Source of the DNA: the human T2T-CHM13v2.0 reference genome, Homo sapiens
DNA: 64,000 bases
Direction: 5' to 3' (one strand)
NCBI RefSeq assembly: GCF_009914755.1
Contig: NC_060931.1
Below, one piece after another: positions 1 through 32,615 of the stretch. The position numbers and the translations under genes were made by a program. The first letter of the stretch is position 1; each line of letters starts with the position of its first letter. The notes beneath the pieces were generated by a model. The model worked only from the letters and a program-made list of their open reading frames with translations. It ran no database searches and had not been told where the DNA came from.

Positions 1-60
1 TGGGCAACATAGTGAGATCCTGTATCTACAAAAAATAAAAATAAAAAATGAAACAAGACA
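1..60 (+). mobile_element. 3' end of an old Alu (AluJ/FLAM type), cut by the window edge
   Basis: TGGGCAACATAGTGAGATCCTGTATCTAC followed by an A-rich tail. Confidence 0.85.
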
Positions 61-61
61 G

Positions 62-101
62 AAACAAACAAACAAACAAACAAACAAACAAACAAACAAA
101 C
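62..101 (+). repeat. (AAAC)10 microsatellite derived from the Alu tail
   Basis: Perfect AAAC tandem array directly after the Alu A-tail. Confidence 0.95.
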
Positions 102-1085
102 AGATAATGTGATGTGGTAGAAAAGGCACTGGGACTAAATTTATTATAAGTTCTCAATCCTTATTAGCACTCTGTCTCTCTCAGCTTCAATTTCCTCATC
201 TGTAAGCTATCCGTTAGCCTCACTTTTTAAAAAAATCTATAAATTGTCTGCTAGTAAATTGCTCTGAAGCTAAACTCAAACAATAGTCCCTTTTGAATTG
301 TTCTGTTATCTCATGTTCTGGGGCATGCTAATCCACTGATTGTAGTACCTGATAATGTCTCCTTATAATGAATCCCTTTTTTATGTGGCTTTAATTTTTG
401 TGTGTGGGCTTATTTTCAACTGGAATTATTTTTGATTTGTATGAATCATGTATGTTCAGTTCTGTGGAAATATCTTTATAGGTTTTATATTTGCCATGGC
501 TGAGTATCCCAAGGGTTTCATTTGTCTAGGATGAATTTTTGCAGTATTTTATGAGTTTAAGATCCCAACACCATGTGGATGATATTTATTTGGAGTCCAT
601 ATCTGCATGTGGCACATGCTAGGGCTTTGGAGCCCACCAGACCTGAAGCTTCTTTGCTTCTACCCTGGGCCCTCTTGGGAAGTTCTCCTGTTCCCCTTAC
701 ACAAAGCAGGCAGTGTGTGAGTTCTAGCTCACACTTGGGTTCAAGGCCTCATCTCTGATTTTTCAGGGGGATTTCATGATTCTAGTTCCTTGCTGTTAGA
801 GCCTCTCACCATGTCTGATACCCCCTGGGATTCTGCTGCATTAGTTCATGCTATGAATTTCATTGTGTTTTGGGGGGTATCTGGAAATTTCCCTTTGTCT
901 TTTGAGTTTGGCTTTTAGAAAACACTTAATAGTTTATCTACACCTCTAGTATCTTTGTCAAGAGGATCTTCTTAGCTCAATTTGCCATGTTGTTGGAAAT
1001 GAAAATCAAGTGTATATTCTTTATGAGCACTTTCCCTTGGTTAGCCATTTTATTTCATAAAGTTACGCTTGTTCAGTGGCAGAAG

Positions 1086-1232
1086 CATTGCTTCTCAAAC
1101 TGCCTGTGAACCCCTTTGGGATCTTGTTAAATGCAGATTCCAATTCCCTAGGACCAGGAGCTGCAATTCTGCATTGTTAACCAGCTCCTAGGTGATGCTG
1201 ATGCCCCTGACCAACTCTGGGTAGTGAGGTTT
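1086..1232. mobile_element. MER5A-like hAT-Charlie MITE
   Basis: CTTCTCAAAC...GATCTTGTTAAATGCAGATTCC...CAGCTCCTAGGTGATGCTGATGC resembles the MER5A consensus. Confidence 0.75.
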
Positions 1233-1649
1233 TGAGCTAGGGCAGCAGTAATCTCTTCCCAATTGCCAATTTATGAGTTGCTGGAATTCATCTAGTGTGG
1301 TTGCCTGATAAAATCTCCACTCATTTTGTTGCTCTCACAAATGAAACTTCATGTTGAAAGCAGTTTTAAAAAATGTAAAGAGTTATAAAATATTTCTTCA
1401 TTTGGAAAAAAAAATCTATAAATTCAAAATGGAATGGAATAAAACTGACCTTTAAAGCCCTTGAAAATACCCAGAAGTCCTCATCTGCTTTACCCAAAGC
1501 TCCCTTCCACCTCCTTTTCCTTTCATTAAGTCCATTTTTCCTCAAGCTAAAATTCCAGGCAAATTAATAAAAGAATTAACTTTCTAATTTAATTTAAGTT
1601 TTCCTTCTATAATTATGTATTAATATTGATTTCTTTTTTGTTGTTATGG

Positions 1650-19789: not shown

Positions 19790-20030
19790 AGCAGGTAGAG
19801 TATTGAAGTTTAAAAACACAGACTCCAGGATGAGACAACCTGGTTTCAAATCCTGATTCTTCCATTTATGAGCTCTGTGATCTTGGGCAGATTACCTAAG
19901 CTCTCCTGACTTAGTTTACCCATTTATAAAATGGAAATAATTATAATATGTGCCTCAGAATTATTTTGAGGATTAAATATAATATGTAGGGAGCTCTTGG
20001 CATGTAGAAATGCTTTAACAACTGTTGTTG
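19790..20030 (+). mobile_element. MIR
   Basis: TTTCAAATCCTGATTCTTCCATTTATGAGCTCTGTGATCTTGGGCAGATTAC. Confidence 0.8.
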
Positions 20031-22830: not shown

Positions 22831-23191
22831 GTGTAGGTCTCCAAGTTCAGCACAGGATTCTGAACATGGAACTTTAAAATCGAAATACTTCAAGGAAAGT
22901 TAGAGCACAAAATTGTTAGTCATTTAGATCTTAGCATAAATGAATTCCTTTCTCTGTTCTGAGAGCCTCTGGGAATTATGAGGACCTTGGGAACCTAGAA
23001 GTAGGCATCAGAGGAACTGACACAGGGTAGGGAGGAAAGGGGAAGCAAACATTTGCCTGACTCAAGATTTTACTTTTGAGCCAGCTCTGCCTTTTAGTGT
23101 GTCCATTCTAGCTTCTGTGAACTTGCTATTTTTTATGATTGTTAACTCATTATTATTATTTTATTATTATTAACTCATGCTAATATTCATT

Positions 23192-23354
23192 CAGCACTGG
23201 TTTAATGATAAGAAAATTATAAGAAATAATGAGTTAATAATAATATGCCATTATTATTATGTAATTATATTATATATATTATATCATGAGATAATATGCC
23301 AGTATTATTAACTCATTATTTCTTATAATTTTCTTATTATATCAACCGGTGCTG
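23192..23354. repeat. 163-bp AT-rich inverted repeat
   Basis: 35-bp perfect stem (23208-23242 / 23303-23337) extended by CAGCACTGGTT / AACCGGTGCTG. Confidence 0.95.
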
Positions 23355-23590
23355 GCTTTTATGATGATGATTCACAGAGATCCTTCTCACCCATCTAAGT
23401 AAGAGTTAAGTGGTATTTTTAGCACCTCTTCTCTTATGTCCTTTGTCTTACTATTCAGACAGTCAGTGGACATTGTTGGCATATAATCTTGCATCTGTTC
23501 CATTAGGGGTTAATGCTGGCTTCTCTTTACAGGTGAGTTACTTATAAACATCTTTGCTCTATTTTCCTCTTTAAGGACAATCTCTTACAG

Positions 23591-23650
23591 TAGTGGTTCT
23601 CAAACCTGAGCATGCATTGGACTTACATGGAGGCTTGTTAAAACGCAGAT
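23591..23650 (+). mobile_element. MER5A terminal ~60 bp (one end), truncated
   Basis: TAGTGGTTCTCAAACCTGAGCATGCAT...GGAGGCTTGTTAAAACGCAGAT, then an abrupt switch to unrecognised sequence. Confidence 0.8.
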
Positions 23651-23660
23651 CAGCCAGTGC

Positions 23661-24328
23661 CATGAAAATAATCAACTTGCTTAAATTGCGTTGGACTTAA
23701 GATTGCTTTTGGACTGCTCAAAGATTTCATCCTATATCCATTCAGACAGAAGAGCCGGGGCCCTTCAGGAGGTTCCAGATCAGTGCTCTGTCCTATCTTA
23801 ACTGCCCGCCAGAATGAACACAGCCCTGCTGGCAATGATGAGTAATCATATTCATCTCAGCTGTGCAGGGATGGCTCAGTATTCCTCTAAGAATTCACAA
23901 TGGTCTCTTCTGTTATCCCATCCATGAGGATGCTTCAGATCTCCAAGGTTTCATGTGGCTGGGGCTAGAGGCTGGGTGGAGAAGGAGTGCATGAAAGAAG
24001 ATAGAACCTGCAAAGTAGAGATAGGTAACTCTACTTTGTAAGGACATTGAGTAAAAGGGTCAATGCCCTCACCAAGCTGGCCTCTCAATCTTTTTGACCC
24101 CTAACTAAGAAGAGAAGACAGGGAACAGTTTTACATTTTGGCTGAGACAAGGGGCCTGGAGCTTTTCCTGGACAGACGGTGTTTGTACCCCTAAGCCACT
24201 CACAGCTCAGGTCTCCTCTGCTGAACCCAAATAATACTGAGTGAGTGACTATAAAATATCCCTTTGCCCCAAAGTGCCAGCTTTGCATTGTACCCTCATT
24301 AAAGTGTGCTCTTGTGGCCAGACTGTCA
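23661..24328 (+). repeat. Left arm of a ~660-bp inverted duplication
   Basis: Collinear with the reverse complement of 25588-26245; roughly 80% overall by eye, 95/98 in the core 23993-24090. Confidence 0.97.
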
Positions 24329-25480
24329 GTTTCAGAAGAAAACTCCTTTTAATTTTAACTAGAGTCCTAGGCATCAGAAACAGTAGAGAAAGAGGATTCA
24401 TTTATGAGTTCCTATGGCAGATTATGGGTTTTATTTGCTCCTTTACACCACTTTTCAGTCTGTCATTTTGGTAAGGTTAAGCCCAGTGTAAAACGTTCCC
24501 GTAATTATGCTCGGAAACCCTCCCAGCCTGCTGCATGCCAATAAATGCCTGGAATAACTGTCAGGCTAAATGAATCCCATTTGCACAAAATGATTATTGA
24601 AAGTTATTTTAGTTCCCTATTAAGCAGTTGCAGAACAGAGCTGTAATCAAAATGTTTATTTCAGTTAGAATTATTATGGTCCATAAAAACCTCAAGTAGA
24701 AAGTAAACTACACTTTATCAAATACAGTAAAGGCCACAGCTAGTTAAACTTCTTTTTTCACACGGCCTCTATCCTAGAGTCTGACAAGAGGCATAATGAT
24801 TAGCCTTTTCCACACTATATTAATGGATTTTATAGCCCAACTTCTGTCTAGCTAATCCAGAGTCTCTTGCCCTGGGTGAATAGAAACCTCAATTCTTTCC
24901 TGCTGGTTACCATGGCAAGCCAGCAGGCATAAGTCTCTCTGTTTCTGAGGTTACAAAGTAGGGGAGTGTCCCCTCACATTGAATGGCTGAGAAAAGGCCG
25001 TGGGGTTATAGTGCAAACAGAAGTATTTATTCATCCTACTGCCCCCCATGACTGACTGTGTACAAGCATTCCTGTTACTATAGCAGCGATTTCTTTTCCT
25101 GTGGATCTCAAAGGTAGCCAAGAAAAAATGCTTTGGCTCATTAGGCCAATGTAGTCATCCTCACCAGAAAACCGCTTCTAGGGTTTTTCTTTGGATGGGG
25201 GTAGGGGGATGGCTAATGAAAACGGCCTGTTTCTTTCCTTCCCTCTATGATCTACCCTTGAGAAGAAATCTTGGGTTTACAGTGAATGACTTTCTCGCCG
25301 TAAATCACAACAGTTTCAGTCATAACCCTCTATGCCTAAAAGTACTGTGTTGCTGTTTTTTTTTTTTTTATAAATTCCAATACCCAGTTAGAATCTCTGG
25401 AGGTTGAACCCAGGCATCAGGGGATTAAGTTCCCCAGATGATTCCAATGTGCAATTAATGATGCATACTCCATTATAGGG

Positions 25481-25564
25481 CAGTGGTCCCCAAGGTGTGG
25501 TCCCTGAACCAGCAGCATCAGCACCATCTGGGAATTTGTTAAAAACACAAATTCTTGGGCACCA
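25481..25564 (-). mobile_element. MER5A opposite terminal ~85 bp, inverted relative to 23591-23650
   Basis: CAGTGGTCCCCAAGGTGTGGTCCCTGAACCAGCAGCATCAGCACCATCTGGGAATTTGTTAAAAACACAAATTCTTGGGC. Confidence 0.82.
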
Positions 25565-25587
25565 AATACACCAAAGTGGAGAATGCA

Positions 25588-26245
25588 TGACAGTCTGCAT
25601 TAGGATACCATGCAAACCAGGTGCTTTTGAGCAAAGGGGTATTTTATAGTCACTCAGTATCATTTGGGTTCAGAGAAGGGGACCCGAGCTGTGGGTGGCT
25701 TGGCGGGGAACAAATATCTTTTGTCCATAAAAAGCTCCAGCCCCATGTCTCAGCCAAAGTATGAAACTGTTCCCTGTCTTCTCTTCTTCTTATTTAGGGG
25801 TCAAAGAGATTGAGAGGCCAGCTTGGTGGGGGCATTGACCCTTTTACTCAATGTCCTTACAAAGTAGAGTTATCTATCTCTACTTTGTAGGTTCTATCTT
25901 CTTTCCTGGAAGCCTTCTCCACTCAGCCTCTAGCTTCAACCATATGAGAACTTTGACTTCTGAAATTGGAAACTAGCATCCTCATGGATGTGGTAACAGA
26001 AGAGGCCATTGTGTGTTCTTGGAGGGACATTGAGCCATCTCTGCATAGCTGAGATGAATATGATTTTCACTGTTGCCAGCAGGGCCCTGTTCATTCTGGT
26101 GGGCCGTTAAGGCGGGGCACAGCAGTGACCTGGAACCTTCTTAAGGGTCCCAGGCTCTTCCTGAATGGAGATTGGATGGATTTCTTGAGTGGATCAAGGG
26201 CAACCTCAAGTCCAACCCAATTTTTGTAAATTTATTATTATCATG
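25588..26245 (-). repeat. Right arm of a ~660-bp inverted duplication
   Basis: Reverse complement aligns to 23661-24328. Confidence 0.97.
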
Positions 26246-27221
26246 TTGGGTGTTACTTAGCTGTGTCGAATGCTATCTTTGAAAGTTTTGAAAACTAGAA
26301 AACTAGACTGCTGAAAATAAATGTTCTTGAGTAAAAAAATGATTCACCAGGGTTTTGGTAAGGCCACAGAAATTTGCTGCAATTCCTGTGTTGGTTCATT
26401 AGACCCAGCTGCTGCTTTAGTGAACACCTCTGCTATTCCAGCTAAAAAGGAGAGGAGGACCTTTGGCAAGTATCTTGGCAACAGCTGCCACTCCCAAACT
26501 GCCTGGATGATCACATGCTCCAGGGTGATGCTTCTGTCCTAAGGCTGCTTCAGGCTCACCAGGAGTGCTTTGATTTAGTAGGATTCCACAGCTGTAGCCA
26601 TTCTACCTCTCTGGACTTTTCAGTTACCCAGGCTAACATGCATTCTTTGCTCTTTGAGCAGGTTTGGTTGGGTTTTCAGTGACTTATAAGTAAAGGCAAC
26701 TCAATTAATAAATGGACGTTTGGTTTTATTACACTAAAACCCAGGTAAGGTAATCCACTTAAGTACCTGGATTGTAAGACCAGAAAGGACACTGTTGCCT
26801 GTAATTAGCAGGTGATTCCTCTCTCCAATGGGCTCATCCAGAGCATAGGTCACTACAATCCATTTGGAACACATTGGATCCCAGCCCTGTTAATGCTCTT
26901 CTGTATGCAGTTGGTGTTATTTCACATGCCCATTCAATGAGCAATGAGTGGCTTCCTCTTGATTTACATACCTGTAGCTCCTTCTAAGGCCAGGAGTTAC
27001 CATGTGTCTCATCTGATGACTAATACAGACTGATTCAGTTAGCATCATCAGGAAAAGAAACATTTACACTAATTTGCATTATAACCTTTATTTTGCAAAG
27101 CATTGGATCTTCTCAGAAGCAAAGCCTGATACGTTAGGATCCTAGATGAAATAAATGTTCTTATTTGCCTTAACCTCCATGTAAACTAAAATAGGATCTA
27201 GTAAGTGTTGACAAAAGTGGT

Positions 27222-27578
27222 TGATATGGTTTGGCTCTGTGTCCTCACCCAATCTCATCTCAAATTGTATTCCTCATATGTGGAGGGAGGGAGGTGGTTG
27301 GCTCATGGGGATGGTTCCCCCATGCTGTTCTCGTGATAGTGAGTGAGTTCTCATGAGATCTGATGGTTTTACAAGGGGCTCTTCCCCCTTTACACACCCT
27401 CTCTCTCACCTGCTGCGATGTGAGACATGCCTGCTTACCCTTCCGCCATGATTGTAAGTTTCCTGGGGCCTCCCCATCTATGTAGAACCATAGGTGAATT
27501 AATAAATTGACCTTTTGTTTATAAATGACCCAGTCTCAGGTGGCATTCTTCATAGCAATGTGAAAACAGACTAATACA
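27222..27578 (+). mobile_element. THE1D-like solo LTR (MaLR)
   Basis: TGATATGGTTTGGCTCTGTGTCC...GACTAATACA; perfect 5-bp TSD GTGGT. Confidence 0.93.
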
Positions 27579-32489: not shown

Positions 32490-32615
32490 GTGGGCATGGG
32501 TAGGAGTTCTTATTAAAAATGCAGATCCTCAGGCTCCTCCCCAGACCTAATGAGTCAGAATTTCTGAGTGTGAGGCCTACACAGTTCTTACAACGCTGCA
32601 GTTTAAGATCCACTG
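32490..32615. mobile_element. MER5-family fragment
   Basis: TTATTAAAAATGCAGATCCTCAGGCTCCTCCCCAGACCTAATGAGTCAGAATTTCTG. Confidence 0.7.

What the first reader, a model, noticed from the sequence alone, without database searches (positions are those of the whole stretch)
23591..25600. Split MER5A points to an ancient ~1.9-kb inversion with a duplicated breakpoint
Seen: 23591-23650 is one terminus of MER5A read inward and stops just before the left arm. 25481-25564 is the other terminus, also read inward on +, and stops just before the right arm. Reverse-complementing 23651-25564 rejoins the two pieces into one MER5A, missing ~40 bp in the middle, and puts the two arms in the same orientation. 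Known: inversions made by staggered breaks or template switching leave inverted duplications at their breakpoints. Inference: one event after MER5A insertion created both the inversion and the inverted repeat. The putative 8-bp TSDs (TCTTACAG vs CCCTATAA) match only 4/8 and are inconclusive.
Basis: partly seen in the sequence, partly recalled or inferred. Interest (0 to 1): 0.75.

Follow-up and report, generated by a model that had tools for sequence, protein, structure and literature searches.

The report
Old transposon split by small inversion
One ancient 189-base transposon copy in a human gene desert was cut in its middle, and the 1.9 kb beside it now lies flipped between two inverted copies of a 660-base unique sequence: a well-marked but ordinary old rearrangement.

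Summary
A profile built here from 26 genomic copies of the 189-bp element places 23592-23651 (+) at positions 2-62 (E 8e-19) and 25564-25482 (-) at positions 106-188 (E 1e-16). These are complementary ends of one family, equally diverged, on opposite strands, with about 44 central bases missing.

Each broken end lies 10 or 23 bp from an edge of a 660-bp inverted repeat: 23661-24328 against 26245-25588, 15.4% mismatches, K2P 0.175. Neither arm matches anything else in the human genome, so the arms are a local duplication, not two transposon copies. Re-inverting 23651-25564 in silico makes the two pieces adjacent and colinear.

"One event" is not shown. Copying the arm into a break in the element, followed by a flip between the arms, gives the same sequence. 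A 125-bp core at 96% identity shows either later exchange between the arms or constraint.

No outgroup genome was available. The family name MER5A is recalled, not given by any tool. This is a new instance of a known kind and of low interest.

The parts
23583..23590 (.). Putative 8-bp target-site duplication on the left (TCTTACAG)
   Evidence: Read. It matches the right-hand candidate at 4 of 8 bases. The calibration shows that 4/8 is uninformative (8 of 31 true pairs against 18.5% of null pairs).
23591..23650 (+). Left half of the 189-bp element (MER5A by recall), consensus positions 1-61
   Evidence: nhmmer gives profile 2-62, E 8.2e-19. 52 of 59 bases are identical to the consensus of 26 genomic copies. 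Genome matches: 26 non-self, reaching no further than query base 72 of 83, mostly base 68, which is 23650.
23651..23660 (.). 10-bp junction filler of unassigned origin
   Evidence: 9 of its 10 bases (23652-23660) were tested. They show no significant likeness to the missing middle of the element (731 of 2000 shuffles score as well). The 10 bp show no likeness to the sequence outside the right arm (by eye).
23661..24328 (+). Left arm of the inverted repeat (668 bp)
   Evidence: blastn aligns 23661-24299 with 26245-25599 at 81.1% over 656 columns, E 8e-164. The inner 10-base match beyond an 18-bp indel extends it to 24328. Its only genome-wide match is the right arm.
23993..24117 (+). High-identity core of the left arm (partner 25905-25778)
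   Evidence: 5 mismatches in 125 aligned bases against 19.3 expected; permutation p 0.0006. It contains a 12-bp-stem hairpin kept in both arms.
24329..25380 (.). Unique spacer; its orientation relative to the outer flanks is inferred to be inverted
   Evidence: The genome search of 24329-25480 finds only itself, apart from bases 1056-1130, which are the third element fragment.
25381..25449 (-). Third, more diverged fragment of the same family (consensus 25-96); a separate element
   Evidence: nhmmer E 1.3e-6. 48 of 69 bases identical to consensus. More diverged than the two halves together (Fisher p 0.01). 12 dispersed genome matches.
25473..25480 (.). Putative 8-bp target-site duplication on the right (reverse complement CCCTATAA)
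   Evidence: Read. 4 of 8 match with 23583-23590.
25481..25564 (-). Right half of the 189-bp element, consensus positions 106-189, inverted relative to the left half
   Evidence: nhmmer gives profile 106-188, E 1e-16. 70 of 84 bases identical. None of the 39 non-self genome matches passes query base 84, which is 25564.
25565..25587 (.). 23-bp junction filler of unassigned origin
   Evidence: No significant likeness to the missing middle of the element (1965 of 2000 shuffles score as well; the test stretch was 25565-25588). No second copy in the window at 5 or fewer substitutions.
25588..26245 (-). Right arm of the inverted repeat (658 bp)
   Evidence: Arm comparison: 641 aligned positions, 99 mismatches, K2P 0.175, 9 indel events. 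Its only genome-wide match is the left arm.

Best explanation
The ancestral locus held one intact 189-bp quasi-palindromic DNA-transposon copy (MER5A by recall). About 1.15 kb to its right lay a single copy of the 660-bp sequence that now forms the arms.

A rearrangement broke the transposon near its centre. Consensus positions 62-105 were lost, and 10-bp and 23-bp fillers were left at the joints. A second break fell at the far edge of the 660-bp sequence. The segment now at 23651-25564 was re-joined in reverse orientation, and the 660-bp sequence was kept on both sides.

The result is an inversion with a deletion at one breakpoint and an inverted duplication at the other (a 'delINVdup'-type event). 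The most likely route is a single complex event, either one blunt and one about 660-nt staggered break that was filled in and end-joined, or two replication template switches.

Shown: the split, the orientations, the abutments, the uniqueness of the arms and the relative ages. Inferred: the ancestral order, the single-event origin and the break mechanism.

From arm divergence and recalled neutral rates, the event is roughly 40-90 million years old. No function is indicated.
For: - Complementary, non-overlapping halves on opposite strands: profile 2-62 (+) and 106-188 (-), E 8e-19 and 1e-16.
- Equal divergence of the halves from consensus: 52/59 against 70/84, p 0.48.
- The left half ends 10 bp before the OUTER edge of the left arm. 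The right half ends 23 bp before the INNER edge of the right arm. This is the geometry the model demands. A crude chance estimate is 2e-7.
- In-silico re-inversion makes the halves contiguous and colinear.
- The arms match nothing else in 3.1 Gb: 2 of 2 candidates are the arms themselves, for each arm and for the core. They are therefore a local duplication of unique sequence, as in the staggered-break inversions of Drosophila (17 of 29 inversions; median duplicate 321 bp, up to about 1.9 kb; passages of PMC1885836).
- The class delINVdup is recognised in human structural-variant surveys (passages of PMC5338099, and PMC5829575).
- 0 of 28 near-full-length genomic copies carry a central deletion of 40 bp or more, so the 44-bp loss is probably part of the event.
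- Arm divergence per lineage is 0.088, against 0.163 for the element copy from consensus, which fixes the order of events.
Against: - No outgroup sequence was available, so the ancestral orientation and the single-arm state are untested.
- The same final sequence arises from a two-step path (see rivals), and nothing in the sequence separates the two.
- The arm core at 96% identity against about 82% elsewhere shows the arms may have exchanged sequence after they formed. That makes a later flip plausible.
- A 660-nt stagger is long for the isochromatid model; its own authors note this difficulty.
- The putative target-site duplications match only 4 of 8 (likelihood ratio about 1.4).
- The fillers cannot be assigned.
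- The consensus was built from copies chosen for likeness to this copy, so its divergence is probably underestimated.
- The idea that the break was caused by the element's hairpin is weak. A random 44-bp deletion would cover the apex about 30% of the time (my estimate).
Confidence: 0.45

Rival explanations
1. Same ancestor, two steps.

Step 1: a double-strand break near the centre of the element was repaired by copying the nearby 660-bp sequence, in inverted orientation, into the gap. This is transposition-independent gap filling, as proposed for single-copy 'Pack-TIRs'. It gives left half - arm - right half - spacer - arm.

Step 2: homologous recombination between the two then-identical inverted arms flipped everything between them, giving today's order.
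For: - It produces exactly the observed junctions. The fillers lie at the two joints made in step 1, while arm|spacer and arm|right flank remain ancestral adjacencies (geometry worked out).
- Gap filling at broken terminal-inverted-repeat transposons is described in passages of PMC8277862.
- In one long-read survey, non-tandem inverted duplications are a recurring pattern, whereas delINVdup was seen once (passages of PMC5829575).
- The 125-bp core with 5 mismatches against 19.3 expected (p 0.0006) is what a later exchange between the arms would leave.
Against: - It needs two fixed events instead of one.
- Recombination between 660-bp arms is expected to be rare (recalled knowledge, not tested).
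- The core could instead reflect purifying selection.
- No intermediate state can be seen in a single genome.
Confidence: 0.33
2. The 660-bp sequence was already inside the element: an older insertion that replaced its centre. A later inversion of the right half plus spacer then duplicated exactly that insert, in inverted orientation, at the other breakpoint.
For: It gives the same final order (geometry). The arm has TATA-like and poly(A)-signal-like motifs near its inner end (my reading, untested), so it could in principle be an old solitary mobile sequence.
Against: - It needs an extra event of unknown source, since the arm has no other relative in the genome.
- It needs both duplication boundaries to coincide, within 10 and 23 bp, with the boundaries of the older insert.
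- There is no target-site duplication around the arm, and 44 bp of the element are missing. Neither fits a clean insertion.
Confidence: 0.07
3. No shared history. The two pieces are independently truncated copies of the family, and/or the arms are two independent insertions of one repeat family that happen to lie beside them.
For: The family is clustered here, with a third fragment 32 bp from the right piece's terminus. The target-site duplications match only 4 of 8.
Against: - The arms are unique in the genome, so they are not insertions of a dispersed family.
- The pieces have complementary coordinates, equal divergence, the required orientations and both abutments. The joint chance is of order 1e-7.
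- My own variant, a second left half just outside the right arm, was tested and rejected. nhmmer gives no hit at 26246-26310 even at E 100, and the alignment there is no better than 91 of 500 shuffles.
Confidence: 0.03

Closest known systems
Inversions with inverted duplications at their breakpoints (staggered-break model, Drosophila; Ranz et al. 2007, PMC1885836)
   Same: An inverted duplicate of ancestrally unique, non-repetitive sequence sits at the ends of the inverted segment. The duplication is at one breakpoint only, as in 12 of their 18 cases. The duplicate size (about 660 bp) is within their range of 46 bp to about 1.9 kb. Duplicate identity (about 85%) is near their mean of 88% (passages).
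   Different: The inverted segment here is tiny (1.9 kb, against chromosomal scale). It is in the human lineage and in a gene desert. The ancestral state is inferred from a split transposon, not from outgroups. One breakpoint carries a 44-bp deletion and both joints carry fillers.
CNV-flanked complex inversions of human structural-variant surveys (delINVdup / INVdup classes; Collins et al. 2017, PMC5338099; Frith & Khan 2018, PMC5829575)
   Same: The net signature is deletion - inversion - inverted duplication. Template switching (FoSTeS/MMBIR) is the mechanism usually offered (passages).
   Different: Those are recent polymorphic or de novo variants defined against a reference. This one is fixed and old (arms 15% diverged), and its class is inferred from one genome.
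Single-copy 'Pack-TIR' formation by gap filling at a broken terminal-inverted-repeat transposon (Tan et al. 2021, PMC8277862)
   Same: There is a break inside an inactive DNA transposon, a copy of nearby unique sequence lies next to the broken half, and the parent copy is within 2 kb (passages).
   Different: In the present sequence the captured copy is not flanked by both halves in normal orientation. The right half lies inverted on the far side of the spacer. It would fit only as the first step of the two-step rival.
Alternative (reversed-ends) transposition of hAT elements causing inversions (maize Ac/Ds; PMC8225341, seen as search listing only)
   Same: A hAT-type element lies at an inversion breakpoint.
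   Different: Those breakpoints lie at element termini and create a new 8-bp duplication. Here the break is internal (consensus 61|62 and 105|106), so transposase is not implicated.

Membership tests
   A profile and consensus (189 positions) were built from 26 genomic copies. Left piece: profile 2-62, E 8e-19, 88% identity. Right piece: profile 106-188, E 1e-16, 83% identity. 28 distinct near-full-length copies among 55 fetched loci carry both ends about 190 bp apart.
   4 of 8 match. In the calibration, 4/8 occurs in 8 of 31 true pairs and 18.5% of null pairs. At least 6/8 occurs in 8 of 31 true pairs against 2.3% of null pairs, which confirms that the family makes 8-bp duplications.
   No repeat library is held. 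The only proxy is that both pieces fit one profile seeded from relatives of the left piece, with equal divergence (p 0.48).
Inversion with flanking inverted duplication (staggered break / delINVdup) | A segment inverted relative to its ancestral neighbours | tested here: met
   An internal marker shows it. The two halves of one element lie on opposite strands and become colinear after in-silico re-inversion of 23651-25564. Which side kept the ancestral orientation is not testable.
Inversion with flanking inverted duplication (staggered break / delINVdup) | The duplicated sequence is ancestrally unique, not a dispersed repeat | tested here: met
   Each arm and the core match only the two arms in the 3.1-Gb genome. 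The search is a loose first look plus BLAST, so very old relatives could be missed.
Inversion with flanking inverted duplication (staggered break / delINVdup) | The edges of the duplication coincide with the rearrangement joints | tested here: met
   The outer edge of the left arm is 10 bp from the broken end of the left half. The inner edge of the right arm is 23 bp from the broken end of the right half.
Inversion with flanking inverted duplication (staggered break / delINVdup) | Outgroups show a single copy of the arm and the opposite spacer orientation | not testable with these tools
   Only the window's own genome is held ('It has no relatives here').
Pair of independent insertions of one repeat family (e.g. 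solitary LTRs) | Other dispersed copies of similar divergence elsewhere in the genome | tested here: not met
   There are no non-local matches for either arm or for the core, at E up to 10 for the left arm and the core and at the default E of 0.001 or less for the right arm. There is no other copy in the 64-kb window.
Pack-TIR (captured sequence inside a terminal-inverted-repeat transposon) | Captured fragment flanked by both transposon ends in normal convergent orientation | tested here: not met
   The right end lies 1.15 kb beyond the left arm and is inverted. The feature would be met only in the inferred intermediate of the two-step rival.
hAT alternative transposition | Breakpoints at element termini with a new 8-bp duplication | tested here: not met
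   The breaks are internal, at consensus 61|62 and 105|106. Both termini are intact and face away from the joints.

The most novel reading that the evidence does not exclude
The quasi-palindromic transposon itself was the cause. As single-stranded DNA its consensus folds into one long hairpin (dG -58.7 kcal/mol, z -11, apex near position 90, inside the lost stretch 62-105). A hairpin or cruciform break at that tip would have seeded the copying of the neighbouring sequence.

The 125-bp core kept at 96% identity in both arms would then be a duplicated functional element (regulatory or small-hairpin RNA) held by selection, not a conversion patch. The locus would be a dated, fixed example of an inactive transposon creating a duplicated functional inverted repeat.
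Probability: 0.08. Interest if true: 0.45.

Novelty: new member of a known kind. Interest (0 to 1): 0.25.

Why it matters
The locus is a clean worked example of reading an ancient rearrangement from a single genome. A split transposon supplies the ancestral adjacency, and the divergence of the duplicated arms supplies a relative date.

It adds a fixed, old human-lineage case to a class known mostly from Drosophila species comparisons and from recent human variants (inversion with a deletion at one end and an inverted duplication at the other).

It also leaves a testable question: one complex event, or a duplication followed by a flip. Primate genomes could answer it.

No gene, annotated enhancer or known RNA family is involved. 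The nearest annotated enhancer ends at 19810, and Rfam gave nothing at threshold. Biological consequence is probably nil.

Tried and rejected
1. A second left half of the element just outside the right arm. This would have meant the right side is simply an element with an insertion, and the left side a partial inverted copy. A lenient alignment ran on to 23562/26336. It is no better than chance: 91 of 500, 276 of 500 and 38 of 500 shuffles reach the observed scores for the three sub-tests. The profile finds nothing at 26246-26310 even at E 100. Rejected.

2. The arms as solitary LTRs or another dispersed family. Rejected on copy number.

3. The fillers as remnants of the missing middle of the element. 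Not significant (the test coordinates were one base off at each filler, 23652-23660 and 25565-25588).

4. The fillers as templated from nearby sequence. The 24-mer has no second copy in the window at 5 or fewer substitutions.

5. A split repeat across the arm|spacer or arm|right-flank boundaries, which could tell which adjacencies are ancestral. The spacer and the first 970 bp of the right flank are unique, so no marker exists.

6. A common pre-existing central-deletion variant of the family. 0 of 28 copies.

7. Known RNA family in 23400-26500. The only match is a sub-threshold mir-449 hit (23 bits against gathering score 60.4, E 0.073). RNA folds of the core have z from -1.6 to -2.5, which is unremarkable.

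8. Coding potential. 10 stop-to-stop frames of 60 aa or more, the longest 107 aa. Not followed up.

9. The terminal 13-base motif alone is not enriched in the window: 23 matches against 26.3 expected.

10. A profile search of the genome with the two-arm alignment was not accepted by the tool.
Full report
WHAT IS THERE

Reading 23300-26700 and searching for repeats shows a long inverted repeat broken into colinear blocks. The best block is 185 nt at 89% complementarity.

Gapped BLAST joins the blocks into one alignment, 23661-24299 against 26245-25599. It is 81.1% identical over 656 columns with 26 gap columns, E 8e-164. A more lenient alignment adds an exact 10-base match beyond an 18-bp indel. 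The arms are therefore 23661-24328 and 25588-26245.

Over 641 aligned positions there are 99 mismatches (62 transitions, 37 transversions) and 9 indel events. K2P is 0.175, or 0.165 without CpG sites.

ARE THE ARMS A TRANSPOSON FAMILY?

No. The window's own genome (3.1 Gb) could be searched. The right arm, the left arm and the best-conserved core each find only the two arms (2 of 2 candidates). The 64-kb window holds no further copy.

Two independent copies of a family that are 85% alike should have similar relatives elsewhere, and none exists. The arms are therefore a local duplication of unique sequence. One caveat applies: the search is a loose first look followed by BLAST, so relatives far more diverged than the arms could be missed.

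THE TWO TRANSPOSON PIECES

No repeat library was available, so I made a reference. The two pieces were searched against the genome.
- The right piece gave 323 candidates; 40 were scored and all 40 matched. None of the 39 non-self matches passes query base 84, which is 25564.
- The left piece gave 27 matches. The 26 non-self matches end at query base 72 or less, mostly at 68, which is 23650.

In 11 of the 55 fetched loci, plain BLAST already finds both pieces facing each other about 190 bp apart. The profile later finds 28 distinct near-full-length copies. Twenty-six copies seeded by the left piece gave a 189-bp majority consensus and an HMM.

Against 23000-27000 the HMM gives these hits:
- profile 2-62 at 23592-23651 (+), E 8.2e-19;
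- profile 106-188 at 25564-25482 (-), E 1e-16;
- a third hit, profile 25-96 at 25449-25381 (-), E 1.3e-6.

Identities to the consensus are 52/59, 70/84 and 48/69. The first two do not differ (p 0.48). The third is more diverged than the two together (p 0.01). It also overlaps the left piece in consensus coordinates, so it is a separate neighbouring element.

What the calls show is a dispersed 189-bp quasi-palindromic family whose true copies have matching 8-bp flanks far more often than mismatched pairs do: at least 6 of 8 matching in 8 of 31 true pairs, against 2.3% of null pairs.

GEOMETRY

The left piece keeps its terminus and its flank on the left. Its broken end (consensus 61) lies 10 bp from the outer edge of the left arm.

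The right piece has its terminus on its left, that is, it is inverted. Its broken end (consensus 106) lies 23 bp from the inner edge of the right arm.

Consensus positions 62-105 (44 bp) are absent. The 10-bp and 23-bp fillers are not recognisably that missing stretch.

Reverse-complementing 23651-25564 in a script puts the two profile hits next to each other on one strand. The third fragment then follows in the same orientation. A crude estimate of getting both abutments in the required configuration by chance is about 2e-7.

My calibration shows that match to be uninformative: 8 of 31 true pairs against 18.5% of null pairs.

WHAT HAPPENED

Write the present order as:

X - leftHalf - A - S - rightHalf(inv) - a - R

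Two ancestors can give this order by inverting rightHalf+S and duplicating the arm in inverted orientation:
- (i) X - leftHalf.rightHalf - S(inv) - a - R. This has an intact element, with the single arm to the right.
- (ii) X - leftHalf - A - rightHalf - S(inv) - R. This has the arm already inside the element.

Ancestor (ii) needs an extra, unexplained insertion of sequence that has no relative anywhere. It also needs the later duplication to match that insert's edges within 10 and 23 bp.

From (i) there are two routes.
- One step. One break falls in the element and one roughly 660-nt staggered break (or two template switches) falls at the arm, giving deletion - inversion - inverted duplication. 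This is the staggered-break pattern documented for 17 of 29 Drosophila inversions, 12 of them duplicated at one breakpoint only (passages of PMC1885836). It is also the delINVdup class of human surveys (passages of PMC5338099 and PMC5829575).
- Two steps. An inverted copy of the arm is first filled into a break in the element, by gap filling as described for single-copy Pack-TIRs (passages of PMC8277862). Recombination between the arms then flips the spacer.

Both routes leave the fillers at the same two joints and give the same sequence. I could not separate them.

A 125-bp core (23993-24117 / 25905-25778) has 5 mismatches where 19.3 are expected (permutation p 0.0006). That means either later exchange between the arms, which would make a flip more credible, or constraint on both copies.

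I put the shared ancestor (i) at about 0.8. This splits into 0.45 for one step and 0.33 for two steps.

BREAK MECHANISM

The family consensus folds as single-stranded DNA into one long hairpin: dG -58.7 kcal/mol, against -23.6 +/- 3.2 for 200 shuffles. Its apex is near position 90, inside the lost stretch. None of 28 full copies has a central deletion of 40 bp or more.

A hairpin-tip break is therefore possible, but the support is weak. A random 44-bp loss would cover the apex about 30% of the time, and the two break points are not opposite each other in the stem.

Transposase-driven alternative transposition is excluded, because both breaks are internal and both termini are intact.

AGE

Per lineage the arms carry about 0.088 substitutions per site. 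The element copy carries about 0.163 from the consensus. The rearrangement is therefore clearly younger than the insertion.

With recalled neutral rates of roughly 1-2.2e-9 per site per year, the event is about 40-90 million years old. This is an inference. The element's divergence is probably underestimated, because the reference copies were picked for likeness to it.

SURROUNDINGS AND FUNCTION

The spacer and the first 970 bp to the right are unique. No split repeat is therefore available to tell which adjacencies are ancestral.
- No Rfam family reaches threshold.
- The core's RNA folds are unremarkable.
- Open frames are short.
- No annotated gene or functional element overlaps the locus, according to the annotation supplied with the task.

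LITERATURE

The search 'MER5A' + 'inversion' returned 9 papers (8 listed), and none concerns this locus, judged from titles and abstract starts. A search on microinversions, with passages of PMC8755829, gave background only. I therefore cannot say that the rearrangement is unrecorded in genome-alignment resources, only that these two searches did not find it.

VERDICT

This is an ordinary member of a known class of rearrangement, with no sign of function, and of low interest.

Noticed in passing
window 23993-24117 and 25778-25905: A 125-bp core of the arms is 96% identical (5 mismatches against 19.3 expected, p 0.0006), while the rest is about 82% identical. It holds a 12-bp-stem / 8-nt-loop hairpin, intact in both arms with one loop difference. 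This is either a gene-conversion patch or constraint on both copies.
   Followed up: partly
window 25381-25449 (minus strand): A third, more diverged fragment of the same 189-bp family (consensus 25-96, 70% identity). It starts 32 bp from the terminus of the right piece and is followed by a 14-base T run at about 25356-25369 on the + strand. It is a separate, older or different-subfamily element.
   Followed up: partly
window 23131-23354: An AT-rich quasi-palindrome about 240 bp left of the split element. One pair of arms is 38 nt at 97% complementarity (23205-23242 / 23303-23340). 23192-23354 matches its own reverse complement at 81% over 163 bp, and similar AT-rich units occur in tandem on another chromosome. 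It could be a fragile site, but it lies outside both joints.
   Followed up: no
window 1089-1245 and 32506-32579: Two further copies of the 189-bp family. One is a nearly whole element at about 1089-1245 (profile 4-161, E 6e-8). The other is a central fragment on the minus strand at 32506-32579 (profile 65-138, E 3e-13).
   Followed up: no
window 27216-27445: A high-copy dispersed repeat of about 225 bp (4872 first-look candidates; the best matches are 78-90% identical). The family was not identified.
   Followed up: no
locus L039 (G000 contig 10, near 118005130): A genomic copy of the 189-bp family whose two ends lie about 750 bp apart. The interruption begins at about consensus position 65. 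It was not identified by any search; by recall it looks like an Alu.
   Followed up: no
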